64,000 bases of DNA from positions 558,001 to 622,000 of the forward strand of contig CAUYUJ010000225.1 of assembly GCA_963575745.1 (NCBI GenBank), in the 5' to 3' direction. A model generated the notes under the pieces. The model was given only the letters and a program-made list of their open reading frames with translations, did not search any database and was not told where the DNA came from. A program made the position numbers and the translations under genes. Numbering within the stretch: position 1 is the first letter of the stretch; every line of letters starts with the position of its first letter. This DNA is from Prorocentrum cordatum. Taxonomy: Eukaryota. Positions 18,878 through 41,803 of the stretch are shown one piece after another.

Positions 18878-18918
<41 letters not shown>

Positions 18919-18946: not shown

Positions 18947-18980
<34 letters not shown>

Positions 18981-19002
18981 GTTACTGCTAGTACGAGTAT
19001 TC

Positions 19003-19057
<55 letters not shown>

Positions 19058-24834: not shown

Positions 24835-24988
24835 CCTGGCGAAGGACCCAACCATATGCATCTCGGAATACCGTCGTTGTTGGTATCGCCTTCGTTGGAT
24901 ATTTTGATGGGGCCACGAAGCATGCGAGGAGTGTGATGATGATCATTATGATGATGATGCTGATGATGATGATGATGATGATGATGAC

Positions 24989-25039
<51 letters not shown>

Positions 25040-25443: not shown

Positions 25444-25604
25444 TAGGATGTTTGGTAAAACTGATGGATCTCCCCGACTCCAGAACTGGCGCGGGCTTCC
25501 ACTTGCGGTTCCCTTGCTCCTGCCCTTGCCTCTTGCTTGCCCTTTCTCTCTCCCTCCCTCTTCACCGCCGCTCCGCGGCTCAAGCCTTTCTAAGGCCAAG
25601 CTGG
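25444..25604 (+). repeat. Split direct repeat A1 (161 bp)
   Basis: Identical to 41355-41515 except A25592 vs G41503. Confidence 0.97.
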
Positions 25605-25699
25605 GGGTCGGCCTCAGTTGGCCTAAGGCCGGGCCCCGGAGGGGCCAGAAGACTCCCAGGCCTGGGTCCAGGCCTGGCAGGGGCGCCCGCGGCCGCACG

Positions 25700-28600
25700 A
25701 TGCCGCGCCTGGCGCCGCGCGGCTGGTGGGCGGCAGCGTCGCCGCCCGCGGGCGCGCAGCTGCGCAGAGGTGGGGGGCCTGGGCGCCGAGCGGCGCCGGC
25801 TCACGCCAGCCGCGGAGCACCCAGAGGCGAGGCGGCATCCGTCGAGGCGGGGCCGCCGAACCCCCCCGACGAGCCAGCAGCCAGGCGCGAGCCCGCGCCG
25901 GCGCTGGCGCAGTGCCAGGCGGGGGCCGCGGGTTGCGCGTGCGCGCCGGGGCCCGCCTGGAGGAGCTGCCCCAAGGCCCAGACGCCGCCGCCGGTCGGCC
26001 GGCGCCGTGGGCGCGCGGCAGCCCTGATGCTGATCCTCGCGATGACCGTCGGGATCGTCGATGCCGACGCCGATGCCGAGTCCGCGTACTACGACGACAA
26101 CGTGGACATGAGGGAGTTCTGGCTCGATGCGCCCGTGGACCCCTCGATGCACGTGGGCGCGCCGCCGGACGGGGTCTCCCCTACCGGCGGGCGCGCTGCG
26201 CCTGCAGGAAGCAGCGGAGGGGGAACGCCGCGCGAGCGCTCCGCGCCGCCGGCTGGGCCCCCTCCCCAGGACCCGACCCACCCACCCCCCGACCCCCCCG
26301 ATGGGGATCCATCGTCCTGGATCAGAGGTTGGGGTCTTTTCGGCATCAGCTGGAAGGACATCGGCAACCGCACCTACTGGTTTGCCGAGGGGATGGGTGG
26401 GGGTACCTTCAGGGCCGTGGGGAGCTTCAGGTCTGCCTTCTCGACTCGCGAGGCAGGAGGTTGGCTTAGCTCAGAAGGTGGCTGGGTGCTCTACATGACG
26501 GACCAGATGGGCCTCACCCTGTTCGGCTCCGCGTGGCCGCTGATCGCCGGGCTCGTGGCGGTCTTCGCCGGCACCGGGATGGTCGCGCTCTTGGCCCACA
26601 GCCTGAGGACGCTCTTCGCACCCTGTAGCTGGGCGGCTTGGACCTGCGGCTTGGTGCTGGCATGCTGCCCTTGCCCGAGGCGCCGTACGCCTGGCGAAGT
26701 CAAGCTCGACAAGCTGGTTCCGCCGGCGGCCCCGCCGCTCACCGACGTGGTGTGGCATGGGCCGACTACCGGGGCCGACCCGACGACTGACTGGTATCGC
26801 AAGAGCATCAAGGAAGGCCGGGGCTCCAAGCGCGGCCAGAACGACCTCATGATCCGGGTGGACTACAGGGTTGCCCGGCTCAAGCTCAACATGAAGTCTC
26901 CTGAACGTATCAACCGCCAAGGATTGTGGGTGGAATACGATTGCGTGAAGGGTGCCAGCGACAAGAGCTTCCGGCGCGAGCTGGAGCAGCGGGATCCTCG
27001 CTGGCTTCACCTGTGCCGCTCTTCGAGCTGTACTGGGTGCAAGGGGCGCGAGAACGAGCTGCATTGCAAGGAGTACGCGGCCCTCGACAACGAAGCCATC
27101 GTAGACCTCGGTGACTACTCGAGGTTCACACCCTGCCGGATCTTCGTCTGGCTCTGGAGGGGGACGGGCCTTGTCTACAAGTTGCTACTGTACATCCTCT
27201 CGTGGTGCTCATGTTGTGGGGCATGCCTCTGCCGCCGGCGCCGCCGCCGTCCTAAGACTGGCGATGCGGAGCCTGGCGTGCAGGGGTCAGTGGCAAGGCT
27301 ACTTGACCAGGAGTCCGAGTCCGAGGTAGATGCCGAGGACAACCCTTGCGAGGCAGTGAAAGTGGGGCTCATGATCAAGGGTAAGATGCGCCCACTGGCT
27401 CCCGAGGGTTGTCGAGACGCTGCGCGAGGGGACCCTACTGTGCTGCTGGTGGAGGACGGGCGGGCCTCGGACCTCCCTCTCCCAAGTGAGGGGAGCGCAA
27501 CGGCCTGCCTCTGCGAGCATCACCGGCAGATCTACATGGTCCTGCGCTACGGCGAGAAGTGCTCTCAGGTGACCTGCTTCCGGGAAGCGGTGGGCATGGC
27601 CTCAGGGGTTCCTCTCTGTCTGCAACACCTTGGGGGTGACGCAGCCCGTGCAATACACGACAACCCAGCAGGAGTCGGGTTCTTCGCAGGACTACGGCGC
27701 CGAGCTCGGCGGAGTCCTGCAGCACGGAGCCGCACACCAGAGCGGGCAGCTGCCGCCCCAGCCAGGAGCCGCACTCCAGAGCGCACCGCACCCCCGCCCT
27801 CTGCGCGAGAGGCGCCTTCCAGCCCTGGCGACCCCGTCCCGTCGCCGGCTGGGCCACCGAGCGTGCGCTTCGAAGCGCCGCCGGTTCCGGGCTTCCCCCA
27901 GCCGCCAACTCAGCCGCCTATGCCCCTTGGACAACATTTCATTCTACGGGCGAGGGTGCATTGGCCCGAGGGGGCGCAGTGGATGATTTTCAGAGGGAAA
28001 GCAGTCGATGCCGTCGCGGCCAGCACGGTGGCCGACTACTTCGACGGTGCGCTGGCGCTCGAGGTGGCAGACCCAGCAGGCGTCGCCATCCGCTTCCTCG
28101 TGAAGCCCGACGGCGTCATCCGTGCGCCGTCTCCAGGACCCTCCGGACGCCTACCCGCAGGGTTCATCGAGGAGCTGCTCCACCACGCACCCCTGGGATG
28201 CGAGGAGCTCGGCATCGGCGTCTCGGCGACCAACGTACCCGAGAAGGTTTGGCACAAGCTGGCAACTTGGCATGGTCTGCCCGTGGGTGGCCGAGCTGGC
28301 CCACTCAGCGAGGCACGCTGGCGGCTGCTCAAGGAGAAGGTGGTCGACCTAGTCAAGTGGCACCCTGAGGGGGGCGTGGCACCCAGTCCAAGCTTCGAGG
28401 CGCAGGCCACCGAGGCGGACGCCAAGCTGCGCAGCCATTGGCGGCGGCTCGATCGCAGCAGCTCGCCCAGGCCGCCCTCGGGGTCAACAAGAAGGAACTC
28501 TCGTTCGCCGTCAGCCGAGGGCGGACGAGCAGCCAGCTCTGAGGCGCCCGCGTCAGGAGAGAGTCATCAGGGAGATGAGGGAGGAGACATGATGGCCTGC

Positions 28601-30991
28601 TACTTGGAGGAGAAGGCCCGTGGGTCAAGCGATGCGGCCGCTGTGCAGAGCGTGGCTGCTGGCTTCGGTGAGGAAGCCCAGCAGGTGCTCGCCGGCCTCA
28701 TCCGATATGCTCGATACCTCAAGCAGCAGACGAATGAGCCTGAGGAGCTCGTACGACTGGATGGGCACATTGGCAACTGGGAGGTGCTCCAGCAGGTGCC
28801 CTCGCGACCACAGACCCCAGAGGCATCGCCTAGCAGCCTCCAAGAGCTCCTCAAGCTCTCACCCGAGCACCACCGCTCACAGGGGCCGCCGGCCTCCACG
28901 GCCGACAGCGCGCCCCTGTTCGAAGCACATCCATCACTCTCGCCAGCGGTCGTCCTGCCGGCCTTCCCCGTCGGACAACGGGACGCCGGCCTCCCAGCTA
29001 CCACGGCTGGGTTGGGCCCGGTCGTCCGCCCCCAGGCGCCGAACATCAGGTCCCTGTTTTGCTACGACCAGCACGTCAGTGACTTGGGCCTGCCTCCAGG
29101 TTTGACCACAGCACCAGCACGCTACGCTGCTGGGGCCCGAGAGGACAGTGGGGGTGCCGACCCGTTCGGCCTCGTGCAGCCCGGGGCAGCGCTGGACGCG
29201 AACACCGCCAGGATGCTCCACGCGTTAGAGGGGGTTGCCAACGCCCGGCAGGGCGACAAGGCAGCTCCGCGTGGGACAGTGGCGGCGCTGGGTCGGGCCG
29301 AGGAGTTGGACGTCTACCTGGCGCGCGGCTGCGGCCAGCTGACCGTGGAGGTCTGCGACGAGGTCCTCGGACGCGAGCTGTTCTACGCTCTGCGCCGGAC
29401 CTGCGAGCAGAACAAGGCCCTCATGCTCGCCGTCGAGACGCCCACCACGGTGTCCAACCGGATCGCAATGGCGTGCGCCTCGCTCAGCTTCGGCGGCAGC
29501 AGCCTGGACAACCTGGCCCCGTGGTCGGCATCTGTGGCGGACTTCCCGACCTGCAAGACGATCGCGTTCGACAGGTACAGCGCGCCACACGACACCAAGC
29601 TGGAGCCCAGGCCCAGGGCCCCCGTGGTCTTCGACCAGTGGAAGCGGCAGGCCCAGAACATGACCAGGTTCTTCGGGCTTGTCTTCGGGCGGGAGCACGT
29701 CAAGGAGCGCCTGGACTGCCTGGAGACTCTCGCACGGGAGTGTGAGAAGGACGACCGCGCCTTCCCGCCCAAGTTCGTCTACGAGTTGTGGGAAGAGCTG
29801 TGGGCGACCTGGTGCGAGCGGCTCCGAGACAAGAAACGAAGCCTCCTGCGCATGCTGCAGACGGACAACCCCAGGAAGGAGGACCTCAAGATGGTGGCCT
29901 TTGCTCCCAGGCCGGACGGACGCCCAGCTTTCGTCTTCCCTAACGTCTTCGACCTCGAGTCTCCCACAGGCTATTACCAAGAGGTCGTACGCCCGCGACA
30001 GCAGCGCTACCTTCAGACCGTCCTCAACGACTCGATGCACGGGGTGCGTGGCGCCCCGGGCAAAGCTGGGGAGGTCCGAGGAGGGGGAGAAGAACCAGCC
30101 GCCGAGCCTCAGGAACAGCGCGCTGGTGCCACCCCCAAGAGGAAGCCCAAGGCCAAGGCCCAGCCGAAGGCCAGCTCCGCACGGGCCGCGTACCCTGCGG
30201 GCAAGCGGCTGAACGCCCAGGAGATCAAGCTGTCGGTCCGGCATGCGCCCTGCGACAAGCAGGGCAAGCCGCTCTGCTGGGACAACTCGACCTGGATAGG
30301 TTGCAAGAAAGGAACTGCGGGGTGCTCACACTCGCACGAGCTTATCAAAGGGCTGAAGGACGTGCACTGGACCGTGCAGTGCCAGCTCCTCAGGCGGGGA
30401 GGGCTCCGCAACGCCACCAAGATCGACCCGGCGTCGGTCAACGGGAGAATTGCACAGCTGAGGGCCCAGGCGAAGACCGAGGCGGACAGCAAACGGGCTG
30501 CAGGCGCTGGCGCGGCGGAGAGCCAACCTTCCAAGACGGGTTGGGCGCCACCCGACGAGTACGCCGAGGTCCAGTGCACCGAGCTGGAGTCAGAGCTTCG
30601 AGAAGCCGCTCAGGGGCCCGATGCGACCTGGCTCGAGGACCCGCGGGCCAACAGCCCGGCCCTGATCGGGACGAGTGTCTGCGCAGACGAGGGAGCTCTG
30701 GCCCAGCGGAAGCTGCTCGAGGCCGTCCAAGAGAGCGGGGCACTCGACCCCGTGAGCCATGCCAGTGACTACATGCGGTCGCACGTCTTGGCGCGTCTCG
30801 CGTGCGCCCGCGGGCGCGGGGAGGAGCTTTCGGTTGAGCAGGTGCTCCTCGAGGCGACGAGCCAAGGCGGACCCACCTTGGCCGCCGAAGCTAGCGAGCT
30901 GCTGGACCGCCTTGGGGCGAAGGCTGGCAACCTGGGAGCCGACCCCGATGTCATCATAACGCCAGTGAGGTGGGCGCTGAGAAATCGGTAG
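25700..30991 (+). CDS. Retrotransposon ORF1, gag-like (hydrophobic/TM segments, Cys/His zinc motifs, CCCH finger)
   Basis: Long open frame; the track start at 25196 lies outside the element and the true start is uncertain (ATGs at 25448, 25700, 26027). CCCH motif CWDNSTWIGC-KKGTAG-C-SHS-H at ~30275-30337. Further motifs HLCRSSSC...HC and CEHH...CSQVTC...CLQH. Confidence 0.85.
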   Translation: MPRLAPRGWWAAASPPAGAQLRRGGGPGRRAAPAHASRGAPRGEAASVEAGPPNPPDEPAARREPAPALAQCQAGAAGCACAPGPAWRSCPKAQTPPPVGRRRGRAAALMLILAMTVGIVDADADAESAYYDDNVDMREFWLDAPVDPSMHVGAPPDGVSPTGGRAAPAGSSGGGTPRERSAPPAGPPPQDPTHPPPDPPDGDPSSWIRGWGLFGISWKDIGNRTYWFAEGMGGGTFRAVGSFRSAFSTREAGGWLSSEGGWVLYMTDQMGLTLFGSAWPLIAGLVAVFAGTGMVALLAHSLRTLFAPCSWAAWTCGLVLACCPCPRRRTPGEVKLDKLVPPAAPPLTDVVWHGPTTGADPTTDWYRKSIKEGRGSKRGQNDLMIRVDYRVARLKLNMKSPERINRQGLWVEYDCVKGASDKSFRRELEQRDPRWLHLCRSSSCTGCKGRENELHCKEYAALDNEAIVDLGDYSRFTPCRIFVWLWRGTGLVYKLLLYILSWCSCCGACLCRRRRRRPKTGDAEPGVQGSVARLLDQESESEVDAEDNPCEAVKVGLMIKGKMRPLAPEGCRDAARGDPTVLLVEDGRASDLPLPSEGSATACLCEHHRQIYMVLRYGEKCSQVTCFREAVGMASGVPLCLQHLGGDAARAIHDNPAGVGFFAGLRRRARRSPAARSRTPERAAAAPARSRTPERTAPPPSAREAPSSPGDPVPSPAGPPSVRFEAPPVPGFPQPPTQPPMPLGQHFILRARVHWPEGAQWMIFRGKAVDAVAASTVADYFDGALALEVADPAGVAIRFLVKPDGVIRAPSPGPSGRLPAGFIEELLHHAPLGCEELGIGVSATNVPEKVWHKLATWHGLPVGGRAGPLSEARWRLLKEKVVDLVKWHPEGGVAPSPSFEAQATEADAKLRSHWRRLDRSSSPRPPSGSTRRNSRSPSAEGGRAASSEAPASGESHQGDEGGDMMACYLEEKARGSSDAAAVQSVAAGFGEEAQQVLAGLIRYARYLKQQTNEPEELVRLDGHIGNWEVLQQVPSRPQTPEASPSSLQELLKLSPEHHRSQGPPASTADSAPLFEAHPSLSPAVVLPAFPVGQRDAGLPATTAGLGPVVRPQAPNIRSLFCYDQHVSDLGLPPGLTTAPARYAAGAREDSGGADPFGLVQPGAALDANTARMLHALEGVANARQGDKAAPRGTVAALGRAEELDVYLARGCGQLTVEVCDEVLGRELFYALRRTCEQNKALMLAVETPTTVSNRIAMACASLSFGGSSLDNLAPWSASVADFPTCKTIAFDRYSAPHDTKLEPRPRAPVVFDQWKRQAQNMTRFFGLVFGREHVKERLDCLETLARECEKDDRAFPPKFVYELWEELWATWCERLRDKKRSLLRMLQTDNPRKEDLKMVAFAPRPDGRPAFVFPNVFDLESPTGYYQEVVRPRQQRYLQTVLNDSMHGVRGAPGKAGEVRGGGEEPAAEPQEQRAGATPKRKPKAKAQPKASSARAAYPAGKRLNAQEIKLSVRHAPCDKQGKPLCWDNSTWIGCKKGTAGCSHSHELIKGLKDVHWTVQCQLLRRGGLRNATKIDPASVNGRIAQLRAQAKTEADSKRAAGAGAAESQPSKTGWAPPDEYAEVQCTELESELREAAQGPDATWLEDPRANSPALIGTSVCADEGALAQRKLLEAVQESGALDPVSHASDYMRSHVLARLACARGRGEELSVEQVLLEATSQGGPTLAAEASELLDRLGAKAGNLGADPDVIITPVRWALRNR

Positions 30992-33900: not shown

Positions 33901-36900
33901 GGCGAGAAGTTGCCGCTGTGGGCCACGCTGAAGCCGCCCAAGGAATGGACCAGTTGGAGCCCCCGGTGGAACCGGGACCAACAACCCGCACCTGGGGCCA
34001 CAGCCCAGGAGGGTCAGCGGAGAGTCACGGCCAGGATTGCTGATAGAGCGGCAGCAGCAGCAGCAGCGCCGGCAAGGCCGAGCGGGGCCGCAGCGAGCTC
34101 AGCAACCGGCAGTGGCCGCCAGCCAGCCCCAACGTTCAGCGAAGTGGCGGCAGCAGCGGGCGGCGCCCGAGCGAGCTCGGTACCCCCGTCCAGCGGTGGC
34201 ACTTCGAGGAGTTCAGGCGCTTTGATGCGAGTCGAGGAACAGCTCGCTGAAGCTCAGGGGCAGCATGCCCGAGCAGCGAGCGAGGGCGGCGACCAGGAGC
34301 TGAGCGCGGCGCGCGTGGTAGGACAGCTGGAGATCAGGCGCAACGAGGTCCAGGCCCGCCGCGCTGCCCGGCTCGAGCGCGAGGCGCGCCGGCGGGAGCG
34401 CGAGGACCAGAGGGCCTCCAGCGCACCCCCAGAGCCCCACAGCCCACAGGTGCCCACGGAGGCCCCTCCTCCGCCCGAGGCGGAGGAGGACCCAGAGACC
34501 ACCTCGGAGGAGATGGGACGCCGGGTTGCCGAGGCGCACCCGGGCGTAGCCTGCCGTGGGGGGGTCCACAAGTGCAACGCTGCTCGACGATTCGTCAAGA
34601 ACTTCAACGACGTGCGGAGGGGTGGCAAGAGCCACGACCTGCAGCATGCTGATATCCTGTATCTGAACGGGATCGGGCAGATCAGCGACGTCTTGATGCA
34701 GGCATATCCCGGGGCCGACCCGACGGACCCATCCCTGCCGCCGGAGCCTCGCCAGCTCGGCGAGATCCTGGCGCGCTACGTGGAGGAGCACGAGACGTTG
34801 AAGCTCAAGATGACGAGCTTAGGCATTCCACGAGACGAACAGGCCGGTGGTGGAATCCTGGACCCCATCTACGTCGCGACTGAGAAGACTTACGTCGAGG
34901 AGTACGAGGGTCGGGATGTCCCAAGCGCTCGCAGCCGCAGCCGCCGGCGGAGTGGAGGAGCAGCCCCCTCTGGGGGAATGAAGCCCCCCGGGGGCACTCC
35001 TGGCGACTCAGAGTCATCTGCCTCCGAGACGATGGCCCCTGACACCCGAGGCCGGCTGCGAGCGAGGTCGCCCCAGGATGAGAGCCGGGGGCGCGGCTCC
35101 GCCCCGGACCCGAGGGATCCAGGGCGCAGGTGCGGAGGCCCTGAGGTGCCGCCGGCGGACACCCGCCGAGGCGCGCACCAGAAGGGCTGTGCGGAGGCAC
35201 ACCAGGACGAGAGTCGATCATCGCCGGTGACACCCCGGCCTGGCACCTCCGAGGCCAAGGAGTACTTGCACTGGTGCCTGGAGCATGCTGAGTTTGCTCC
35301 CGAGCTGGTGAAAGAGGTGACGGATCTGGGGAACCGCCTGCTACTCGCCGCAGGGAGCGTGGAGGCAGCAGCAGCGAGGCTCCGCGAGGAACGGGAGCTC
35401 GCCCTCGGGAACCCGCTCGGGGGAGTGCTCGATCCCGAGTTCGGCGAGGCGCTCGAGGAGGATCACCGGCTGTACCTCCAGGAGATGGCGAGCAGGGGCG
35501 TCCCCGTTCGGAGGCAGCAGCCCAGGCGCCGAACTATAGCCAAGCCCCACGCTTCCGCGAGGGACCATGCCCTGGAGATGTACGCCAAGGCCTGGAAGGA
35601 CACGTCCTACGGCGCCGTGCTCTGGGCCACTCCGGAGGCCGAGGCCGCCCTGTCCGCTTCCGAGCTCATCGAGAGCCCGTCAGGGCGTGTGCCTAAGATG
35701 TTGCCGGACCGCACAGTGAGCAGCGAGGGACGCCCCATACATGATATGAGGGTTGCCAATGGAGACTCGCCCAAAGAGCTGCATCCGCCAGCGCTCCAGC
35801 CCAAGCACGAAGCTCTTGTGCGCCTGTCACTCTGGTGGTCCGCACGCCACCCGGGCGTCCCGCAGGTGATAGCCAAGCGGGACGTGTCGCGGGCCTTCAA
35901 GTGGCACTGGGTGCGCGACGAGGACGTGGCCGAGTTTGGCACCTCCCTCCCCGGCGACGCCGTGGGTCTGACCACGCGCGTGATCATGATCCACTGCGTG
36001 ATGGTCTTCGGGTGGTCGGGGTCGCCGGGCGAGTACATGGCGTTCGCCTGGAGTGCCAAGTGGGACCACGAGCGGCGCCGCCCACCAGACCCAGCGGTCA
36101 ACGACACAGTGCGCTGGTCGTCCAAGTGGCTGATGGACGACGGCGTCTTGGTCGAGCCGCTGGTCGGCCTTCGGCCCTGGCTCAGCGCAGCCGACTGCGA
36201 CGCGAGCATGCGGCGCGTCTGGGGCGACGACGCGATCAACGTCGACAAGATGGCAGAGGAGGGCACTTTCCAGGCAGAGCAGCTGGTCTGGGGCCTATAC
36301 TTGGATGTAGACAAGCAGCGCTCGAGGCTCCCCGAGCCCAAGTGCGTGAAAGCCGCCCACCTCTTGGCGATCGACGAGCTTCGCTATGGATGCCGACGGG
36401 TTCCCATCAAAGTCGCCCAGGAGCTGAGGGGGTCGGCCCAGTTCTGGGTGGCTACGCAGCCGGCTATCAAGCCCGAGCTGCCGGTCATTGACCGCCTCCT
36501 CGGCGGTGGGCTCAGCGCAGCCTGGGCGGAACCCCGAGGTAGCGCTGAGGAGGTCGCCCTTGCCTGGGACGAGTGGGACCAGACCCTTGAGCTGCTGCGG
36601 GTGCTCTTCGACGCACCCGAGGCCTGGGCGCCCACTTTCGAGGCGAGCTTCATTTCCTGTCCAGGGCCGCGCGAGCGCCTGGCACTCCCAGGGGCCGCCG
36701 CCCGGACGAGATGGACTGGGGGGGGCGCAACCACGACGACCATCGGCAGCATCGACTGGGGGCGGGCAGTGGCCGGCAGCAAAGCGATGCCACCTCACTA
36801 CATGGCCGTGGACGCCGCCCCGCTCCTACGCCAGCTGGAGGACGTGCTGAGCCACCCAGGGGCCGAGAAAGATTGGGCGATCGCCATCGTGGAGCTGCTC

Positions 36901-39900
36901 GCGTTTGTAGCCCTAGCTGCCGCTAGGGGTAGCGAGTGGCAAGGCGAGCTGGTCTTCTACGTCACCGACAACATGAACGTGCGGTCGTGGATTTCCAAGA
37001 GGCGGCCCAAGCACCCGCTGGCACGGCACCTCATTCGCCTCGTCCAGCGCCTGGAGGCTTGCTACGGGTTCAGCACGACCGCGCTGTACATACGCACTTA
37101 CCACAACGACATCGCGGACTGGCTGTCGCGGGAAGAGGCCAAGAAGGTCCACTCCGAGCTTCTTCGCAAAGGGTGGACCCGTATCGAGCCGCCCGAGGAA
37201 TGGGGGAAGATGCTGGCCGAGGCAAAGGAGCACCTCCTGCGGCTACCTGGAGAAGATGGGCCCATTGCGGAGTCAGCGCTCCGGCATCGGGCGCTGAGGA
37301 CCCCAGCAGCGGTGCCACGCAACCTCGCCCTCACAGGGCGCCGGGGCCTCGAGCTGGGAAGCCCACTGGGGACTTACGGGCGAGCCTGGGAGCAGCTCGG
37401 TGGCGAGCTGACCACGGGCGACTCCACGGGGGTGGACTGGATCATGTGCACGCTGTCTCTGGACCCGAAGGGCTTTGAAGTCGAGAAGTTGGCATCCTCA
37501 ATTACCAGGGCGAGGCCACAAGTTGTTGTGGTCGACGCCCCGGGCAAGCTCGACCTGACCCGCGTGGTCAAGGTGCTGCGCAAGCTGGGGTACCGCGTGT
37601 ACGATCTGGAGGTCGTCTGCACCCACTACGGCGACATGACAGCTCGAGCTCGGAGCCTGATCGTGGCGGGCAAGGGGCCAGCAGGCATTAGCCTGGCGGG
37701 CACGCGTATGCCGCCGGCGCGCCGCTGTCCCCATGGAGTGAAGCACGCGCTGAAGGACAAGCCCAGCGAAGGCTGTCACCACTGGCTCGACGACGAGGGG
37801 AGCGCCACCTGGGACCCTGCAGCTCGTGGGGGCTCCGACCCTACACTGCCCAAGGGCATCGGCCACGTCAAGATCGCCGGCACCAAGCAACTGGTCTGCT
37901 CAGTCGACGGCCCGATCGGCACGGTTCGCTGGCCCGCTGAGGGCCCGGGCGGACCGGGAGGAACCCTGATCCACGTCCCAGGACGCAGTGGCGGGCGCAT
38001 CAGGGCGCTGTCGCCGGAAGAAGTTTGGATCGTGCAAGGAGGCGACGAGGCGTCGTGGGTGCAGCGACGAGCCCGAGGCGACTCCGAGGCCACCCTGATG
38101 CGGGAAGCGGCGAGGTCCCTGCCGCCAGAGACGGCGAGAGCTGTACTTGGTTCTGCTGCGGACGCACTGTCGCAGACCACCCAGCGGGCAGGCGGCTGCC
38201 ACGATCCCGCAGAAACGGCCGCCTGGGAGACGACCCGACGGTGGCTCAGGGCATGGGCGCGGAGCGAGCTCCAGGTGAAAGCTGACAGGCCAGAGGACAA
38301 CCAGCATGCTGGGGTACTGAGCGACGACGTCCATAAAGCGAGGCGCAAGAGCCAGGGCGTCCGCTTCAAGGCCATCGAGGAGGACCTCGTGCGGGGCCCC
38401 GAGCCCCCCCCCGACGCGGAGGAGGTGGACCTGGACGCAGTCGTCAACATCCCCAAGAAGCGGCGGAAGAAGAGCCCCAACCGGGGCAAGAAGGTGGAGA
38501 CCCAGGGCCTGGTCAAGCCGGTCGCCCTGGGCCGCGCTCGTGCCTCCATCGCCCTGCCGGACCACCCGATGCTGGGAGGGGACGACTACGGCCGGTGGAT
38601 CGAGGAGCAGAAGCGTGAGGCGCTGATGCTGCGACTGTCCGAGGGAACCCGCGCTGGCTACGAGACCGGCTGGAAGCAGTGGCAGAGCTTCAGAGCAGCC
38701 CAAGGGGAGTCGCCCTGGCTGGAGGGACGCGACCGCGAGGAGCGACACGCCAACGAGGAGGCACTGTTGGGCTTCGTCATCGTGTTGGCTAAGGTGCTGA
38801 AGCGCACGGAGGGTACGGTAAAACAGAAGTTGTTCGCAGTGCGCTTCGCCCACCTCGTGGTCGGGTACCCAGATCCTCTACTCCACCGAGGCCGTCTTTG
38901 GTCCACGCTCGCCGGCCTCCGGAGAGGCCAAGGGCCGAGCGGGAGGAAGCGGCCAGTGACGCCTCGTATGCTCCTGTGGCTTCAGGGCTTCCTGAAGGAC
39001 CAGTCGGACCTCCCTGAGGCGGACACCGCTGTCCTGTGGGCCGCCGTGGCGGTGGCCTTCTTCTTCATGTTGAGGGCGTCCGAGTACCTGGTCCAGCCCG
39101 GGAAGACATGGAGTCGAGAGCGCGTCGTGCGTGGAGTGGACGTCACGGGCCGCAGTGGCGACAACAAGCCCTGTGCCTTCAAGGACGCGGTGGAGGCGGT
39201 GCTCCACATCACCTCCTCGAAGACCGACCAGTACAACGTGGGATGCGTACGGAACCAGTACGAGACGGGCACATCATTGTGCCCCGTGGCAGCACTCCGC
39301 CAGCTGGAGCGGCACTACCCGCAGAGGCTGCGGGGGAGCGAGGAGGAGCTCCCACTCTTCCGCTGGGCGAGCGGAGCGCCCATCCGTCGCGAGGAGGTGC
39401 AGCACTACCTGACGATCGCAGGGCTTGCCGCCGGGCTGCGGAAGGAGGAGATCGGCTCGCGCAGCCTCCGCATCGGGGGCGCGACAGCGATGTACCACGC
39501 CGTGGACGACTTGCAGCGCGTCAAGCGCTTCGGGCGCTGGGCCTCCGATAGCTTCCACGGGTACCTGTGGGAGAGCCACGAGCCCATGCGCGGCATCTCG
39601 ACCAACATGGCGACGGATGCGTCCGAGCTCACGGCGCCGCCGGCCCATGGGGCCGAGGGCGCGCGCCGTGCAGGCAGGAGCCCGACCCCGCTTTGGCCCA
39701 AAGCAGCGCTGACCATGACGACGCTCGCCGCTACGGCTGGCAGCGCAGACGGCTACGTGCTCAAGGTCAGCCCGGTGGAGAGTCAGAATCTGCTGATCCT
39801 CGTGCTCCCGGTCGGCTTGGGAGCTTGGGCGATGGCGGCGGGGGTGCTACTGACAGCCGTGCTGCTGAGCGCTGCATGGCGGCGCGAGCAGCAGCGAAGG

Positions 39901-40464
39901 CGCAGAGGAGCGGCCCGCAGGCGCGGCAGCAGCTGCAGGATCCGCGTCCCCTGCGCAGGCATGCTGTGCGCAGCGCTGGTGGCGACGGCGCTCACGACAG
40001 CAGCCGGAGAGGTACAGAGCCGAGAAGTGGCGACTGTTGACGGCAAGGCCCAGGGGGCCATGCTTCGCTGGGAGCCGCAGATGGGTACGGTGGCGATCAT
40101 TGTCCCGGTGGGAACGGCGATGAAGGTGGGTGCCACGATCGCAGTGCTGCTTGCAGCAGGCATCGGGGTGATTGGTGGCTGCTGCTGCAAGATGGCCAAG
40201 GAGGACGAGGGTAGGCAGGGGCCAGCCGTGCAGCAGGCCGCCGCGCAGCAGACGCCCAAGGTGCATAAGCCTCCCAAGCAGCCGCAGAGGACGTTTTGCG
40301 ACGCAGGGGTGATGGGCCCGGTGCACTACAATGGCGTGAGGTACGTGCACGAGACCCAGGGCTTCCGCCGGGCCAACGAGGTGACGCGGGAGATGGCCCC
40401 GTCAGGGCACCGCGGGTCATCAGGATGGCCCCGTGGAGGGGAGCAGAGGCCGCACCGTGACTAG
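30970..40464 (+). CDS. Retrotransposon ORF2 polyprotein (putative Cys protease, C5-MTase, Ubl, RT, RNase H, degenerate MTase, tyrosine recombinase, TM tail); probably continuous with ORF1 via a -1 frameshift
   Basis: 3164-codon open frame with no in-frame ATG near its start. Motifs are listed in the sub-features below. Confidence 0.93.
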   Translation: MGAEKSVGQGSVTVQGHTWRYLDYQDQLPLDECIAKRLQVAAGVSEERQCLPLHLAAAKLWVHLETPPDAQQVKDLALEIRRDLLEKATDAAAGLADAPPWISPREAEVRMHIHDAVHRDHDKDFRCVALFPCEALEEVVLRVWRADHWGHLDIDTVLPVGEPKQECHVIIHRGHMRVLHPPPGADGRRVADELIRTWATSGKDLKELPTMGWETYLASEEDGSPVVASKPPPCQHCRALAAQQQQRGRAAGGVTAAVELPTEVECPDFGDLEPLRWRPAFAWGLRTREIFAGTGRWTQAMKDAGIATSESVEYFGQPLLGKDPRPQFDIRDPLVRERLYQEFSAPPGPDEANVLQFAPPCVSHCPWQLAAGGTRTFECPDGTGERQIEIDGNIFGEFACIGAKRGYEAGREFLIESSARDGRYPKLWDRPCMRTLMRATGARVLAIDMCEWGLAPPDEPQHRYQKRTWWLASLGLYPYALILARRCTGHHMHRTLEGGLPYDLTDAQVEAYNLDARTRLSKAEASELINLSTKLSEAGEYYGLDSDGVTVTLPPDDKLIRVNQLIARAAPDNFHWARIDFRTKRHYSALPESQWALYFGKTPEGELRFTLGKQAPSNLEGGGRVPSGTPQLSAAVKGELGSAGFGLGLRGMRRTQHAGQYAPRLCAAWAAVLKAAAAGTAPEKLEQQIAAMDAEARALEEKLEDKVARARRYDALEQEPPPSFQPPTCAGEGGGTADGATDEHEHSVKCGSLEQSANTCCLPHSIWRSSMEVEFEGGSKGHQGGGRSKDGYLERNEAEADGLSSKGEGRGEEEVEVETDGEPAITTWGGDEKRGGRRGGKRGGWKRNKARKREARETAARGGGGSGGGGDDDGDGDESPEEEEEENRRQKKAREAEDEASRASPVRVFVPQQGDQWVLLKGGPFEAGEVKARLRVAETLSGGFFDADQLYLFEYTEDDDTAGAYGPPLDDEEAVRPGEKLPLWATLKPPKEWTSWSPRWNRDQQPAPGATAQEGQRRVTARIADRAAAAAAAPARPSGAAASSATGSGRQPAPTFSEVAAAAGGARASSVPPSSGGTSRSSGALMRVEEQLAEAQGQHARAASEGGDQELSAARVVGQLEIRRNEVQARRAARLEREARRREREDQRASSAPPEPHSPQVPTEAPPPPEAEEDPETTSEEMGRRVAEAHPGVACRGGVHKCNAARRFVKNFNDVRRGGKSHDLQHADILYLNGIGQISDVLMQAYPGADPTDPSLPPEPRQLGEILARYVEEHETLKLKMTSLGIPRDEQAGGGILDPIYVATEKTYVEEYEGRDVPSARSRSRRRSGGAAPSGGMKPPGGTPGDSESSASETMAPDTRGRLRARSPQDESRGRGSAPDPRDPGRRCGGPEVPPADTRRGAHQKGCAEAHQDESRSSPVTPRPGTSEAKEYLHWCLEHAEFAPELVKEVTDLGNRLLLAAGSVEAAAARLREERELALGNPLGGVLDPEFGEALEEDHRLYLQEMASRGVPVRRQQPRRRTIAKPHASARDHALEMYAKAWKDTSYGAVLWATPEAEAALSASELIESPSGRVPKMLPDRTVSSEGRPIHDMRVANGDSPKELHPPALQPKHEALVRLSLWWSARHPGVPQVIAKRDVSRAFKWHWVRDEDVAEFGTSLPGDAVGLTTRVIMIHCVMVFGWSGSPGEYMAFAWSAKWDHERRRPPDPAVNDTVRWSSKWLMDDGVLVEPLVGLRPWLSAADCDASMRRVWGDDAINVDKMAEEGTFQAEQLVWGLYLDVDKQRSRLPEPKCVKAAHLLAIDELRYGCRRVPIKVAQELRGSAQFWVATQPAIKPELPVIDRLLGGGLSAAWAEPRGSAEEVALAWDEWDQTLELLRVLFDAPEAWAPTFEASFISCPGPRERLALPGAAARTRWTGGGATTTTIGSIDWGRAVAGSKAMPPHYMAVDAAPLLRQLEDVLSHPGAEKDWAIAIVELLAFVALAAARGSEWQGELVFYVTDNMNVRSWISKRRPKHPLARHLIRLVQRLEACYGFSTTALYIRTYHNDIADWLSREEAKKVHSELLRKGWTRIEPPEEWGKMLAEAKEHLLRLPGEDGPIAESALRHRALRTPAAVPRNLALTGRRGLELGSPLGTYGRAWEQLGGELTTGDSTGVDWIMCTLSLDPKGFEVEKLASSITRARPQVVVVDAPGKLDLTRVVKVLRKLGYRVYDLEVVCTHYGDMTARARSLIVAGKGPAGISLAGTRMPPARRCPHGVKHALKDKPSEGCHHWLDDEGSATWDPAARGGSDPTLPKGIGHVKIAGTKQLVCSVDGPIGTVRWPAEGPGGPGGTLIHVPGRSGGRIRALSPEEVWIVQGGDEASWVQRRARGDSEATLMREAARSLPPETARAVLGSAADALSQTTQRAGGCHDPAETAAWETTRRWLRAWARSELQVKADRPEDNQHAGVLSDDVHKARRKSQGVRFKAIEEDLVRGPEPPPDAEEVDLDAVVNIPKKRRKKSPNRGKKVETQGLVKPVALGRARASIALPDHPMLGGDDYGRWIEEQKREALMLRLSEGTRAGYETGWKQWQSFRAAQGESPWLEGRDREERHANEEALLGFVIVLAKVLKRTEGTVKQKLFAVRFAHLVVGYPDPLLHRGRLWSTLAGLRRGQGPSGRKRPVTPRMLLWLQGFLKDQSDLPEADTAVLWAAVAVAFFFMLRASEYLVQPGKTWSRERVVRGVDVTGRSGDNKPCAFKDAVEAVLHITSSKTDQYNVGCVRNQYETGTSLCPVAALRQLERHYPQRLRGSEEELPLFRWASGAPIRREEVQHYLTIAGLAAGLRKEEIGSRSLRIGGATAMYHAVDDLQRVKRFGRWASDSFHGYLWESHEPMRGISTNMATDASELTAPPAHGAEGARRAGRSPTPLWPKAALTMTTLAATAGSADGYVLKVSPVESQNLLILVLPVGLGAWAMAAGVLLTAVLLSAAWRREQQRRRRGAARRRGSSCRIRVPCAGMLCAALVATALTTAAGEVQSREVATVDGKAQGAMLRWEPQMGTVAIIVPVGTAMKVGATIAVLLAAGIGVIGGCCCKMAKEDEGRQGPAVQQAAAQQTPKVHKPPKQPQRTFCDAGVMGPVHYNGVRYVHETQGFRRANEVTREMAPSGHRGSSGWPRGGEQRPHRD
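31822..32990 (+). other. C5 cytosine DNA methyltransferase domain (within ORF2)
   Basis: Motif I EIFAGTG (31834), catalytic APPC (32041-32052), FLIES (motif VI-like), IDMCEWG...YQKRTWWL, and C-terminal RTQHAGQYAPRLC. Confidence 0.85.
33685..33933 (+). other. Putative ubiquitin-like (beta-grasp) domain (within ORF2)
   Basis: VRVFV...EVKARL...DQLYLF...GPPLDD...LPLW parallels ubiquitin MQIFV...NVKAKI...DQQRLIF..GKQLED...LHLV. Confidence 0.5.
35430..36500 (+). other. Reverse transcriptase domain (within ORF2)
   Basis: SPSGRVPK, GRPIHDMR, KRDVSRAF (35875), MVFGWSGSP, LMDD (36130-36141), VWGLYLD. Confidence 0.93.
36700..37135 (+). other. RNase H domain (within ORF2)
   Basis: WTGGGAT, IAIVELLA, YVTDNMNV, YIRTYHNDIADWLSR. 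Confidence 0.88.
37339..38160 (+). other. Second, degenerate C5-methyltransferase-like domain (within ORF2)
   Basis: ELGSPLG (I-like), RPQVVVVD (VI-like), LRKLGYRV...HYGDMTARARSLIVA (VIII-like), RALSPEEVWIVQG (IX-like), ARSLPPETA (X-like). No PC catalytic dipeptide. Confidence 0.65.
38620..39580 (+). other. Tyrosine recombinase with N-terminal core-binding domain (within ORF2)
   Basis: SEGTRAGYETGWKQW, FFFMLRASEY (R at 39073), SSKTDQ, LCPVAAL, GSRSLRIGGAT, KRFGRWASDSFHGY (Y at 39562). Confidence 0.93.
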
Positions 40465-40507
40465 GGTGCGGGCTGCCGCCGGCCAGCGGCCGAGCGGGCA
40501 GCAAGGG

Positions 40508-40963
40508 ACCGCCGCCGGCAACCGCCGTGCGAGCGGCCACGTGGCGCCGGCTGAGTTCAGCCTGGCGCCCGCATCAGCTTCGTACTTGCGAACGGCTGGG
40601 CGCGTGCCGCGGCCAGGCTGCCCGTGGGCAGGCGCCGCGCCGGCCTGGCACCCGGCAGTGCCGCCAAGGGGGCAGCAGTGGCGGCTTCGAGGAAGCGCCG
40701 GCGGCTAGCCCAGCCAGGGCTGCCGCGCGGGGCGCGTGGGAACCACCGCCGCCGGCATACGCCGTGCGAGCGGAAGCGCGGCGCCGGCTGAGCTCAGCCT
40801 GGCGCCCGCGCTCAACTTTGCGCTTGCGAGCAGCTGGGCGCGGCGCGGCGGCAGCTGGCGCCTGAGGGCAAGAGCGCCGGCCGGCCCGGCAACCGGCAGT
40901 GCCGTCATGGGGGACGGCGGTGGCGGCTACGGGGGCGCCGGCAGCCAGCCCAGCCAGGGCTGC
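40508..40963 (+). repeat. Diverged ~237-bp tandem duplication in the element 3' untranslated region
   Basis: ACCGCCGCCGGCA at 40508 and 40745; GCCCAGCCAGGGCTGC ending at 40723 and 40963. Confidence 0.85.
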
Positions 40964-41151
40964 TGCCTAGGGCGCACGAAGAACCACCGCGGGCGCCGGC
41001 GGCCTGCCGCCCTGCGCCTGCGGACCCACCTTGCTGGGCAGACGCGGCGGCCTGCCGCGGATGCCAGGACTGTTCTACGCCGACAAGGTCGGCGGCTACG
41101 CGTCCCACTACAGCCAGTTCGGCGTGGTGGAGCGCTCGCAGGGGGAAGGAG

Positions 41152-41354
41152 GCGGCGTGGCCCGCTGCGCGTGGCCGAAGACGGCGCCGGCGCGTGGAGC
41201 GCCGGGCGCCAGCACAGGGAGCGGCACGGCCCCTTTGGCAAAAAGGGTCGTCGTCATCATCTGAGCCGTGCACGTCCCTCTTTTCCTCCCTCTTGAGCCC
41301 CTGCCTACTAGGCTCAAGAGGTTTTAGTTTACCAGTGCTGCTTGAGGGGATATC
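41152..41354 (+). repeat. Split direct repeat B1 (203 bp)
   Basis: Identical to 41601-41803 except C41301 vs T41750. Confidence 0.97.
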
Positions 41355-41515
41355 TAGGATGTTTGGTAAAACTGATGGATCTCCCCGACTCCAGAACTGG
41401 CGCGGGCTTCCACTTGCGGTTCCCTTGCTCCTGCCCTTGCCTCTTGCTTGCCCTTTCTCTCTCCCTCCCTCTTCACCGCCGCTCCGCGGCTCAAGCCTTT
41501 CTGAGGCCAAGCTGG
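41355..41515 (+). repeat. Split direct repeat A2 (161 bp)
   Basis: Copy of 25444-25604, directly abutting B1. Confidence 0.97.
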
Positions 41516-41600
41516 CCCACCCTGGGAGCCCCGCAGGGCTCCCTACCCGCCATTTTCTGGACTTTTACAGCGCCGCCTGGCACTACAGTGCCTCGGCGGC

Positions 41601-41803
41601 GCGGCGTGGCCCGCTGCGCGTGGCCGAAGACGGCGCCGGCGCGTGGAGCGCCGGGCGCCAGCACAGGGAGCGGCACGGCCCCTTTGGCAAAAAGGGTCGT
41701 CGTCATCATCTGAGCCGTGCACGTCCCTCTTTTCCTCCCTCTTGAGCCCTTGCCTACTAGGCTCAAGAGGTTTTAGTTTACCAGTGCTGCTTGAGGGGAT
41801 ATC
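41601..41803 (+). repeat. Split direct repeat B2 (203 bp), element right end
   Basis: Copy of 41152-41354. Confidence 0.97.

What the first reader, a model, noticed from the sequence alone, without database searches (positions are those of the whole stretch)
25444..41803. Giant, young YR retrotransposon built like a viral polyprotein with its own epigenetic toolkit
Seen: a 16.4-kb element with split direct repeats differing by only 1 nt per pair, so a recent insertion, and ~14.8 kb of coding sequence. Established: DIRS/PAT/Ngaro elements normally encode gag, RT-RNase H and YR in separate or overlapping ORFs, are much shorter and lack a protease; DNMT-carrying DIRS elements have been reported in dinoflagellates. 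Inference: here RT, RNase H and YR are fused in one frame with two MTase folds, a putative Cys protease, a Ubl domain and TM anchors at both ends. This architecture resembles an RNA-virus polyprotein more than a standard DIRS.
Basis: partly seen in the sequence, partly recalled or inferred. Interest (0 to 1): 0.88.

Follow-up and report, generated by a model that had tools for sequence, protein, structure and literature searches.

The report
Giant single-ORF tyrosine-recombinase retrotransposon
This is a real, recently inserted but already damaged copy of a 16-kb retrotransposon from a family common in dinoflagellate-type genomes, whose single huge protein joins the usual copying and integration enzymes to two hidden cytosine-methyltransferase-like domains and a probable cysteine protease.

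Summary
Window 25444-41803 is a 16,360-nt element with split direct repeats A1-[coding]-B1A2-85 nt-B2. Each repeat pair differs at one base. About 14.4 kb is coding.

In this copy the coding lies in two frames, 1932 and 3189 codons. Every covering contig from four public runs has one more base behind 30974, and all 8 giant relatives compared read straight through. The family therefore encodes one polyprotein of about 4,800 residues (relative P0162: 4,809 aa on a 15.8-kb contig).

Order of parts:
- signal/TM segment
- conserved N-terminal region
- CCCH finger region
- OTU-like Cys/His domain
- C5-DNMT-fold domain 1, catalytic motifs conserved
- low-complexity linker
- RT and RNase H
- tyrosine recombinase
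- TM tail

Pfam recognises only the recombinase, weakly. The post-RNase H domain has a C5-type fold, and no Dam-type structure appeared among its best matches. The Ubl domain is unsupported. This copy also carries changes at an RNase H and a recombinase active-site residue.

Named relatives come from Polarella glacialis. My searches found no paper describing this architecture.

Verdict: a real element and a new variant of DIRS-order retrotransposons.

The parts
25444..25604 (+). Split direct repeat A1 (5' end of the element)
   Evidence: 161 nt, 1 mismatch to A2. Many contigs of runs X1, X2 and X4 match the left flank up to 25436-25443 and then diverge (table 7), which fits an insertion boundary here.
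25605..26026 (+). Probable 5' untranslated region
   Evidence: No codon periodicity over 25448-26437. Homology to P0162 begins near the Met at 26027. Inference.
26027..30973 (+). Polyprotein, first part (frame of 25193-30991): signal/TM-like segments, conserved N-terminal region, low-complexity stretch, conserved C-terminal region
   Evidence: Open frame. Aa 374-834 and 914-1927 are colinear with P0162 and other giant relatives. Hydrophobic segments at aa 275-293 and 441-469. An N-terminal hydrophobic segment at a similar place in P0019, P0165, P0166, P0169, P0171 and P0172.
30275..30337 (+). CCCH-type zinc-finger motif (C-x8-C-x6-C-x3-H) in the region ahead of the OTU-like domain
   Evidence: C1695, C1704, C1711 and H1715 are each identical in 12 of 12 aligned relatives. 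A nucleic-acid-binding, gag-like role is inferred.
30974..30975 (+). Frame break of this copy (one base fewer than in other copies)
   Evidence: table 4: one base 'put in behind 30974' in all covering contigs (X1 2 contigs, X2 2, X3 1, X4 2; depth with it equals total depth). Relatives read through this point in one frame.
30976..40464 (+). Polyprotein, second part (frame of 30895-40464)
   Evidence: Open frame of 3189 codons, colinear with the relatives.
30991..31680 (+). OTU-like Cys/His domain (second-frame aa 33-262), candidate Cys75 (31117-31119) and His200 (31492-31494), followed by a CxxC pair
31774..33012 (+). C5-cytosine-methyltransferase-fold domain 1 (aa ~294-706), with a low-confidence insertion at aa ~525-675
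33013..35676 (+). Linker, largely low complexity.
   Evidence: No Pfam hit. Aa 930-1043 match only P0162 and P0006. Relatives at ~37% identity have no match between aa ~526 and ~1454.
35677..37134 (+). Reverse transcriptase and RNase H (aa ~1595-2080): RT Asp1663 and Asp1748-1749; RNase H Gly1944 (where relatives have Asp), Glu2000, Asp2025, His2070, Asp2075
   Evidence: Motifs read. Their assignment to RT/RNase H motifs is from my own knowledge. ESM Atlas: nearest named clusters are RVT_1, score 0.95, 183 of 256 features. Pfam finds no RT in 9 of 9 members. Gly for Asp at 36724-36726.
37309..38184 (+). C5-cytosine-methyltransferase-fold domain 2 (aa ~2139-2430), including a target-recognition-like part
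38635..39579 (+). Tyrosine recombinase (aa ~2581-2895): Arg2727, Arg2856 (relatives have His), Arg2859, His2888, Tyr2890
   Evidence: Pfam Phage_integrase: E 0.0028 here, 6.7e-6 best among 4 of 9 relatives, 1.1e-5 to 1.6e-3 in 5 of 5 giant relatives. Positions.
39790..40410 (+). C-terminal tail with two hydrophobic segments (aa 2966-2995, 3066-3101) and a conserved end motif (aa 3125-3172)
   Evidence: Hydropathy. A hydrophobic segment and the end motif are shared with P0003 and P0162 only. Absent in more distant relatives.
40465..41151 (+). 3' untranslated region with a ~240-nt tandem duplication
   Evidence: Repeat families D8-D10, spacing 237-241 nt.
41152..41354 (+). Split direct repeat B1
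   Evidence: 203 nt, 1 mismatch to B2.
41355..41515 (+). Split direct repeat A2
41601..41803 (+). Split direct repeat B2 (3' end of the element)
   Evidence: Identity stops at 41803/41804.

Best explanation
This is a copy of a DIRS-order (tyrosine-recombinase) retrotransposon with PAT/Ngaro-type split direct repeats. It belongs to a large, very divergent family found in dinoflagellate-type genomes.

In intact family members one ORF of about 4,800 codons encodes everything, in this order:
- an N-terminal signal/TM segment and a conserved region
- a CCCH finger region, probably the nucleic-acid-binding gag-like part
- an OTU-like cysteine protease
- a C5-methyltransferase domain that keeps its catalytic motifs
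- a linker
- RT and RNase H
- a second C5-methyltransferase-fold domain with degenerate motifs
- the tyrosine recombinase
- in the closest subfamily, a TM tail

Inferred life cycle: a transcript runs from A1 to B2. The polyprotein is translated, probably at a membrane, and cut by its own OTU-like domain. RT and RNase H copy the RNA, and the B1-A2 junction serves to rebuild the ends. The recombinase then inserts the DNA without a target duplication. The first methyltransferase domain may methylate the new DNA or the RNA.

Shown here: the repeats, the frames, colinearity with relatives, the two methyltransferase folds, the recombinase signature and the multicopy state.

Inferred: protease activity, methylation activity and its substrate, membrane association, and the replication steps.

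This particular copy inserted recently but is damaged. It has one base fewer at 30974, and replacements at an RNase H Asp and a recombinase His.
For: - Repeats and layout.
- Open frames and codon periodicity.
- Recombinase: Pfam E 0.0028 here, down to 6.7e-6 in relatives.
- RT: Atlas RVT_1 clusters at 0.95.
- Colinear giant relatives: 8 of 8 compared. P0162 (4,809 aa, 59% identical over pol, on a 15,819-nt contig) joins first-frame aa 1927 to second-frame aa 28. Loci L003 and L004 show the same order.
- Frame break: all covering contigs of 4 of 4 runs have one more base behind 30974. The residue this restores after Trp matches relatives P0107 and P0018.
- Multicopy: 3,388 contig pieces laid in run X1 alone (773 at 99% or more, 1,076 at 95-99%, 1,539 at 90-95%).
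- Purifying selection hint: of the 34 best-supported coding differences, 22 are synonymous and 22 lie at third positions (only 40 of 1,252 differences were shown).
- Accessory module: 602 representative clusters at E<=1e-3 and 57 at E<=1e-30.
- Folds.
- Motif conservation.
Against: - Pfam and NCBIfam see no RT, methyltransferase or peptidase family in any member tested: 0 of 9 for pol, and 0 of 35 for the module at E<=1 and E<=0.05.
- Profile searches of solved-structure sequences found nothing.
- Domain 2 lacks a conserved glycine loop, so it may be inactive.
- No RNA run is on record as holding the element, so expression was not tested.
- No split repeats of 40 nt or more were found in the four related loci examined (L001, L003, L004, L007). 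These loci may simply be too short.
- No empty site was available, so the absence of a target duplication is read from the flanks only.
Confidence: 0.8

Rival explanations
1. The 16 kb is a composite: an ordinary short DIRS-like element into which host genes or other elements (protease, methyltransferase, membrane protein) were captured or nested in this lineage only.
For: The linker between the module and RT (aa ~526-1454) and the C-terminal TM tail are lineage-specific. Some relatives carry obviously foreign additions: DnaJ after the recombinase in P0164 and P0166, and GYF and FNIP repeats in P0167.
Against: The core order (N-terminal region, CCCH region, OTU-like, DNMT-fold 1, RT, RNase H, DNMT-fold 2, recombinase) is kept in 8 of 8 giant relatives down to ~30% identity and in loci L003 and L004. 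The frame is continuous across all the junctions.
Confidence: 0.07
2. It is an endogenous virus-like retroelement rather than a purely intracellular transposon. The signal peptide, TM segments and possible glycosylation sites would belong to an envelope-like part, and the polyprotein with an OTU protease would mirror viral replication proteins.
For: A signal-peptide-like start in P0162 and hydrophobic segments at both ends. Foldseek hits to N-terminal pieces of nairovirus L proteins, a herpesvirus ORF62 and nege/virga-like replicases. Near-identical sequence in marine metagenome runs of several studies.
Against: The segment between signal and TM is short (~150 aa) and proline-rich, with no fusion-protein-like domain seen. 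The viral hits have rmsd 20-30 A over long alignments, or are explained by the OTU and methyltransferase folds alone. No capsid fold was tested. The metagenome hits are equally explained by the host cells being present.
Confidence: 0.08
3. The accessory domains are real folds but not enzymes of the kinds named. The Cys/His domain would be a deubiquitinase or a non-protease. Both methyltransferase-fold domains would be DNA- or RNA-binding pseudo-enzymes, or would act on RNA. In that case there is no self-processing and no 'epigenetic' role.
For: Domain 2 has no conserved glycine loop, and its motif-VI acid is Asp. Domain 1 of this copy has a long, poorly modelled insertion where a target-recognition domain would sit. 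Dnmt2-type enzymes, which appear among the matches, act on tRNA (my own knowledge). Besides Cys and His, the Cys/His domain also has an invariant R135/H139/D140/H146/D149 cluster that I cannot explain.
Against: Domain 1 keeps F-x-G, the motif-II Glu, Pro-Cys and the motif-VI Glu in 82-99% of 67-80 representatives, which argues for catalysis. Cys75 and His200 are 98% conserved.
Confidence: 0.3

Closest known systems
PAT-like and Ngaro-like tyrosine-recombinase retrotransposons (order DIRS)
   Same: Split direct repeats ordered A1 ... B1 A2 B2 (passage of PMC6681497), RT-RNase H plus a tyrosine recombinase, and no inverted terminal repeats.
   Different: Those elements have about three ORFs (gag-like, pol, recombinase), often overlapping. 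DIRS1-like ones are quoted as under 6 kb (passages of PMC6681497 and PMC3266345). Here there is one ORF of ~4,800 codons in 16.4 kb, with an OTU-like domain, two C5-type methyltransferase folds, a CCCH finger and TM segments. The domain after RNase H has a C5-type fold, and no Dam structure appeared in the 50 best structural matches.
SymbioDIRS-Dnmt3 of Symbiodinium (de Mendoza et al. 2018, PMC5890265; passages read)
   Same: Dinoflagellate host type, A-coding-B-A-B repeats, a cytosine-methyltransferase domain inside the Pol polyprotein, and an RT too divergent for Pfam seeds.
   Different: There the DNMT is a Dnmt3 type found with Pfam models, and the recombinase is in a separate ORF. Here no member hits the Pfam methylase model. 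There are two DNMT-fold domains whose best matches are bacterial M.HhaI-like enzymes. The recombinase is fused, and an OTU-like domain is present. Whether the two groups are sister lineages was not tested.
EpiLTRs and DAM-TEs (bioRxiv 10.64898/2026.05.21.726589; abstract and passages read)
   Same: Retrotransposons that carry more than one methyltransferase domain in the pol ORF.
   Different: Those are Ty3/Gypsy-like LTR elements with a Dam-type adenine methyltransferase, a DNMT and a chromodomain. Here the element is a recombinase element with two C5-type folds, and no Dam, chromodomain or DDE-integrase family was detected by Pfam.
OTU-domain proteases inside viral polyproteins (nairovirus L protein; recalled from my own knowledge)
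   Same: A papain-like OTU fold placed inside a very large multi-domain protein. Foldseek hits to N-terminal pieces of two nairovirus L proteins.
   Different: There is no sequence similarity and no RNA-dependent RNA polymerase. The function in the viruses is mainly deubiquitination and deISGylation, so polyprotein cutting here is an inference.

Membership tests
Order DIRS (tyrosine-recombinase retrotransposons) | Encodes a tyrosine recombinase instead of a DDE integrase | tested here: met
   Pfam Phage_integrase: E 0.0028 in the window piece (below the curated cut-off), 6.7e-6 best among 4 of 9 relatives, and hits in 5 of 5 giant relatives. Arg, (His)-x-x-Arg and His-x-Tyr positions read. No integrase family found.
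Order DIRS (tyrosine-recombinase retrotransposons) | Reverse transcriptase and RNase H | tested here: inconclusive
   Pfam finds no RT in 0 of 9 members. The ESM Atlas puts the region next to RVT_1 clusters (0.95, 183 of 256 features). RT and RNase H motifs are readable, but their assignment rests on my own knowledge. The region was not folded.
Order DIRS (tyrosine-recombinase retrotransposons) | No target-site duplication | not testable with these tools
   The flanks (...GGCAAAAAA | element | CATGATCC...) show no duplication, but no empty site was available.
PAT-like / Ngaro-like superfamilies | Split direct repeats A1 ... B1 A2 B2 | tested here: met
   Layout as described in the passage of PMC6681497.
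PAT-like / Ngaro-like superfamilies | Position in an RT/RNase H phylogeny with reference elements | not tested
   No reference DIRS, PAT, Ngaro or VIPER sequences were available from the tools. The tree holds only relatives of this family.
DIRS1-like superfamily | Inverted terminal repeats with internal complementary regions | tested here: not met
   0 inverted repeat pairs of 30 nt or more in 24000-43500.
DIRS1-like / PAT-like 'MT' domain (Dam-type adenine methyltransferase) | Dam-like fold or sequence after RNase H | tested here: inconclusive
C5 cytosine methyltransferases (DNMT fold), domain 1 | Fold plus motif I (F-x-G-x-G), motif IV Pro-Cys, motif VI Glu | tested here: met
   Fold. Residues F316 82%, G318 99%, P385 81%, C386 94%, E441 96% of 67-80 representatives. 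The assignment of motif numbers is mine. The Pfam DNA_methylase model is not matched by any of 35 members, so sequence-family membership is not shown.
C5 cytosine methyltransferases (DNMT fold), domain 2 | Fold plus catalytic motifs | tested here: inconclusive
OTU cysteine proteases | OTU fold with Cys at a helix start and His at a strand start | tested here: inconclusive
SymbioDIRS-Dnmt3 | Dnmt3-type domain detectable by Pfam; recombinase in a separate ORF | tested here: not met
   No DNA_methylase hit. The recombinase is fused to pol here and in P0005, P0010, P0030 and P0162-P0172. Features taken from passages of PMC5890265.
   No Pfam hit in the window pieces. The stretch matches only P0006 and P0162.

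The most novel reading that the evidence does not exclude
These elements form a separate, dinoflagellate-wide superfamily of tyrosine-recombinase retroelements that replicate in the manner of a polyprotein virus. One membrane-anchored ~4,800-residue protein would cut itself with an OTU-type protease. It would also use an active, highly divergent C5 methyltransferase to mark its own cDNA (or RNA), so that new copies pass as self in a heavily methylated genome. The second methyltransferase fold would be a replacement or a descendant of the classic DIRS 'MT' domain.
Probability: 0.25. Interest if true: 0.85.

Novelty: new variant of a known kind. Interest (0 to 1): 0.68.

Why it matters
Tyrosine-recombinase retrotransposons are described as small elements with about three ORFs and no protease. 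This family shows they can grow to 16 kb with a single ORF of about 4,800 codons and can acquire a probable protease.

It carries two cytosine-methyltransferase folds so divergent that profile libraries miss them. Surveys of methyltransferase capture by transposons that rely on Pfam models would therefore overlook it.

The family is abundant: the accessory module has 602 representative clusters, and one run alone gave thousands of contig pieces. It may thus be a sizeable part of dinoflagellate-type genomes, whose repeat content and DNA methylation are poorly understood.

It also offers a test of what the enigmatic DIRS 'MT' domain does, because here a C5-type fold occupies that position.

Tried and rejected
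- **Own genome:** none is held for this window, so no genome-wide copy census was possible.
- **Sequence profiles:** Pfam on whole frames and on 15 overlapping pieces gave only a weak recombinase hit. Single-sequence and profile searches of solved-structure sequences gave nothing usable. NCBIfam on 35 module members gave nothing.
- **Homologues of methyltransferase-fold domain 2 alone:** none among proteins of 261-833 aa.
- **Domain 1 versus domain 2:** the hhalign comparison of the two alignments gave probability 0.65% and did not pair the two methyltransferase-like domains, so no sequence relation between them was shown.
- **ESM Atlas on the CCCH region:** only unnamed clusters.
- **Metagenome scan:** the first attempt failed because the alignment had no conserved stretch. 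It was repeated with a tighter alignment.
- **Related loci:** L001, L003, L004 and L007 showed no direct repeats of 40 nt or more. These loci may be too short.
- **Programmed -1 frameshift:** rejected. Relatives read through in frame, L003 and L004 shift elsewhere, and all laid contigs have the extra base.
- **Intron at the frame switch:** not pursued, for the same reason.
- **Expression:** no RNA holder is listed for the stretch, so it was not tested.
- **Low-support joints:** joints at 25444/40545 and at 25604/25444, each seen in a single contig, were not interpreted.
- **Earlier findings of this scan:** three look-ups returned nothing.
- **Literature:** seven searches were run. None listed a paper on a DIRS-order element with an OTU domain, a single ~4,800-codon ORF or two DNMT folds. 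'PF26692' occurs in no held paper. Supplements of the papers were not opened.
- **Motif coordinates:** Positions were read from a ruler print instead.
Full report
**1. The observation**

The region 25444-41803 is bounded by split direct repeats.
- A1 (25444-25604) equals A2 (41355-41515), apart from 25592 A against 41503 G.
- B1 (41152-41354) equals B2 (41601-41803), apart from 41301 C against 41750 T.
- B1 abuts A2, and 85 nt separate A2 from B2.
- Identity stops sharply outside these limits.
- No inverted repeats of 30 nt or more exist in 24000-43500.

Between the repeats lie two open frames, 25193-30991 (1932 codons) and 30895-40464 (3189 codons). Every other frame in the region has at most 372 codons. 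From the element's base composition, the chance of 3189 stop-free codons is 5e-33. Both frames show GC of about 0.69/0.53/0.79 at codon positions 1/2/3. The first 1 kb of the first frame (25448-26437) lacks this periodicity.

The element is 67% GC. It sits among microsatellites and satellites of lower GC. The window holds no second copy.

**2. One polyprotein, broken in this copy**

The second frame is -1 relative to the first. In relatives the two parts are one protein.
- P0019, P0107, P0117, P0018, P0013, P0031 and P0097 carry the end of the first frame fused to the start of the second.
- Locus L005 reads through in one frame, and L003 and L004 shift at a different place.
- P0162 (4,809 aa, on a 15,819-nt contig) aligns with first-frame aa 374-1927 and then, one residue later, with second-frame aa 28-3172.

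I laid contigs of four public runs on 25300-41100. All covering contigs have one extra base behind 30974 (X1 2 contigs, X2 2, X3 1, X4 2; depth with the base equals total depth). With that base the reading continues from Trp into an Asp, as in P0107 and P0018.

So the family encodes a single ORF. The window's copy lacks one base, either by mutation or by an assembly error beside a G-run.

By comparison with P0162, the likely start is the Met at 26027, just ahead of a short hydrophobic stretch. That gives about 4,812 codons.

**3. Core retrotransposon domains**

Pfam sees only Phage_integrase.
- E is 0.0028 in the window piece, below the curated cut-off.
- The best among 4 of 9 relatives is 6.7e-6.
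- All 5 giant relatives tested have a hit.

No RT family is hit in any of 9 members. This fits the remark in PMC5890265 (passage) that Symbiodinium DIRS RTs do not align well with Pfam seeds.

The ESM Atlas places second-frame aa 1640-2100 beside RVT_1 clusters, with score 0.95 and 183 of 256 features.

The sequence shows the expected acidic residues (the motif assignment is from my own knowledge):
- RT: Asp1663 and Asp1748-1749.
- RNase H: Glu2000, Asp2025, His2070 and Asp2075.
- Recombinase: Arg2727, Arg2859, His2888 and Tyr2890.

Two active-site positions differ from all relatives shown.
- Gly1944 stands where 5 aligned relatives have Asp, and P0006, printed, also shows Asp there. The codon is GGC, in a run of G.
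- Arg2856 stands where the relatives printed have the His of His-x-x-Arg.

**4. Accessory domains**

I searched second-frame aa 1-1200 by phmmer against 1.84 billion representatives. This gave 602 clusters at E<=1e-3, 326 at E<=1e-10 and 57 at E<=1e-30. Nearly all of the 150 listed rows fall within aa 30-530, and a few lie between aa 480 and 797. None of 20 long members has a Pfam hit there. None of 35 members hits any methyltransferase or peptidase family at E<=1 in Pfam or E<=0.05 in NCBIfam.

An AlphaFold2 model of aa 25-760, made from 35 sequences, has mean pLDDT 80, and both domains are above 90.

*C5-methyltransferase-fold domain 1 (model residues 270-682).*
- All listed Foldseek rows (ranks 1-50) are C5 cytosine methyltransferases (DIM2, DNMT1, MET1, Dnmt2, M.HhaI, DNMT3), with E 5.5e-6 to 4.9e-4.
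- Across 67-80 representatives: F316 82%, G318 99%, E338 91%, P385 81%, C386 94%, E441 96%.
- These are the positions I assign to motifs I, II, IV and VI.
- A poorly modelled insertion (aa ~525-675) occupies the place of a target-recognition domain. It is absent from P0007.

*OTU-like Cys/His domain (model residues 2-226).*
- In the viral library, N-terminal pieces of two nairovirus L proteins (E 2.7e-4 and 1.9e-3) and a cyprinid herpesvirus ORF62 appear among many cytosine methyltransferases. That these viral proteins carry OTU domains is recalled from my own knowledge.
- Cys75 (98% of 59) is the first residue of a helix. His200 (98% of 84) is the first residue of a strand. This matches the usual papain-like arrangement.
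- An invariant cluster R135/H139/D140/H146/D149 and a CxxC pair remain unexplained.

*C5-methyltransferase-fold domain 2 (after RNase H, aa ~2139-2430).*
- The model was made from 10 sequences and has core pLDDT of 75-90.
- It matches M.HhaI with Foldseek E 1.7e-12 and TM 0.62-0.64.
- It therefore has the complete two-lobed architecture of a bacterial C5 enzyme. It sits where DIRS-type elements are said to have an adenine-methyltransferase-like 'MT' domain (passages of PMC3266345, PMC5890265 and the 2026 preprint).
- Its motifs are degenerate: no conserved glycine loop, a Cys at the motif-IV-like column in 7 of 9 rows, and Asp-x-Pro at the motif-VI-like place (Asp in 9 of 10 rows, Pro in 10 of 10).
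- A profile comparison of the two alignments that hold the methyltransferase-like domains shows no sequence relation (probability 0.65%).

*First-frame parts.*
- Aa 374-834 carry a hydrophobic segment and Cys-rich stretches. They are conserved in P0019, L003, L004, L007 and the giant relatives.
- Aa ~1250-1927 are conserved in up to 22 aligned relatives.
- They hold a C-x8-C-x6-C-x3-H motif identical in 12 of 12. This suggests an RNA-binding, gag-like part.

*TM segments and the 'Ubl'.*
- An N-terminal hydrophobic segment recurs at a similar place in P0019, P0165, P0166, P0169, P0171 and P0172.
- The C-terminal hydrophobic segment and end motif are shared only with P0003 and P0162.
- The 'Ubl' stretch (aa ~985-1075) has no family hit, is conserved only in P0006 and P0162, and was not folded.

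**5. Family and host**

Twenty long relatives (1,759-4,937 aa) were found. Three are labelled 'unnamed protein product, partial [Polarella glacialis]'. Fifteen carry a precomputed Pfam family, PF26692, that is absent from the library copy I could search. Eight of the eight giant ones compared are colinear with the window's two frames.

In an RT-RNase H tree of 24 family members, the window groups with P0006 (support 100/100) and then with P0162 (98/98). No outgroup was included.

In the laid runs, thousands of short contig pieces at 90-100% identity cover the whole element, 3,388 in X1 alone. Transitions dominate the differences. Of the 34 best-supported coding differences, 22 are synonymous. 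This is a hint only, because 40 of 1,252 differences were shown.

The left flank (25398-25443) is itself a high-copy repeat, and its other copies continue differently after 25436-25443.

**6. Mechanism**

The following is inferred from the PAT/Ngaro model quoted in PMC6681497. The A and B repeats are made identical during reverse transcription, so 2 differences in 364 nt indicate a recent insertion. At the same rate, a few tens of changes would be expected in the 14.4-kb ORF. That is enough to explain the frame break and the two active-site changes.

A 4,800-residue polyprotein needs processing, and the OTU-like domain is the only candidate protease. A deubiquitinase role is equally possible.

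Methyltransferase-fold domain 1 looks catalytically competent, but its substrate is unknown. Domain 2 may be a pseudo-enzyme or a DNA-binding module.

**7. Comparison and novelty**

The repeats and the core enzymes place the element in the order DIRS with PAT/Ngaro-type ends.

It differs from described members in five ways:
- size
- the single ORF
- the fused recombinase
- the OTU-like domain
- two cryptic C5-type folds

It differs from SymbioDIRS-Dnmt3, which has a Pfam-detectable Dnmt3 and a separate recombinase ORF. It differs from EpiLTRs, which are LTR elements with Dam, DNMT and a chromodomain.

Seven literature searches listed no paper on this architecture. Supplements were not opened. 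The existence of a Pfam family on the relatives shows that at least part of the protein is already catalogued.

I rate it a new variant of a known kind.

Noticed in passing
window 36724-36726 and 39460-39462: This copy has Gly where relatives have the first RNase H Asp, and Arg where relatives have the recombinase His of His-x-x-Arg. The Gly codon is GGC inside a run of G. The Arg codon itself was not inspected. With the missing base at 30974, also beside a G-run, at least two of the three lesions could be assembly errors rather than real mutations.
   Followed up: partly
window 25398-25443: The 46 nt just left of the element are a very high-copy repeat: summed depth about 14,000 in run X1 against 200-480 over the element body. 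Other copies continue differently, and in run X3 five contig ends continue as poly(A) after 25443. The element may have inserted at the A-rich tail of another retroposed repeat.
   Followed up: no
window 13403-14309 and 25124-25305: An 88-91-nt satellite occurs 11 kb upstream and again as two units directly left of the element.
   Followed up: no
window 3088-9736, 15072-17075, 18033-19193, 41853-43600: Very long, strand-skewed microsatellites: (ACT)n over 6.6 kb (interrupted by the 100-N gap at 6315-6414), (CTCACTA)n, (ACATCT)n and (TACTCAC)n. A 53-nt tandem repeat at 469-1167 recurs in reverse orientation at 11212-11804.
   Followed up: no
window 58166-60124 (-): A 652-codon open frame with Ion_trans (E 1.8e-21) and EF-hand domains. 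It is probably a single-exon host ion-channel gene.
   Followed up: no
L007:1-4332: In this related locus the recombinase end (about 2422) is followed after only about 700 nt by the N-terminal region of the polyprotein (from 3124). This could be a tail-to-head tandem or a circle-junction-like arrangement. No direct repeats of 40 nt or more were found.
   Followed up: partly
proteins P0011, P0164, P0166, P0167: Some relatives carry extra domains next to the recombinase or ahead of the polyprotein: RNA 2'-phosphotransferase (PF01885, precomputed), DnaJ after the recombinase, and GYF plus FNIP repeats. These may be gene-model chimeras or real captures.
   Followed up: no
window 40508-40975: The 3' untranslated region holds a ~240-nt tandem duplication at 85-89% identity. 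One contig of run X1 skips 242 nt here.
   Followed up: no
second-frame aa 135-151 (window ~31297-31347): An invariant charged cluster (R135, H139, D140, H146, K148, D149, R151; 84-100% of 78-83 representatives) lies inside the OTU-like domain. It is not part of the usual OTU catalytic set and remains unexplained.
   Followed up: no
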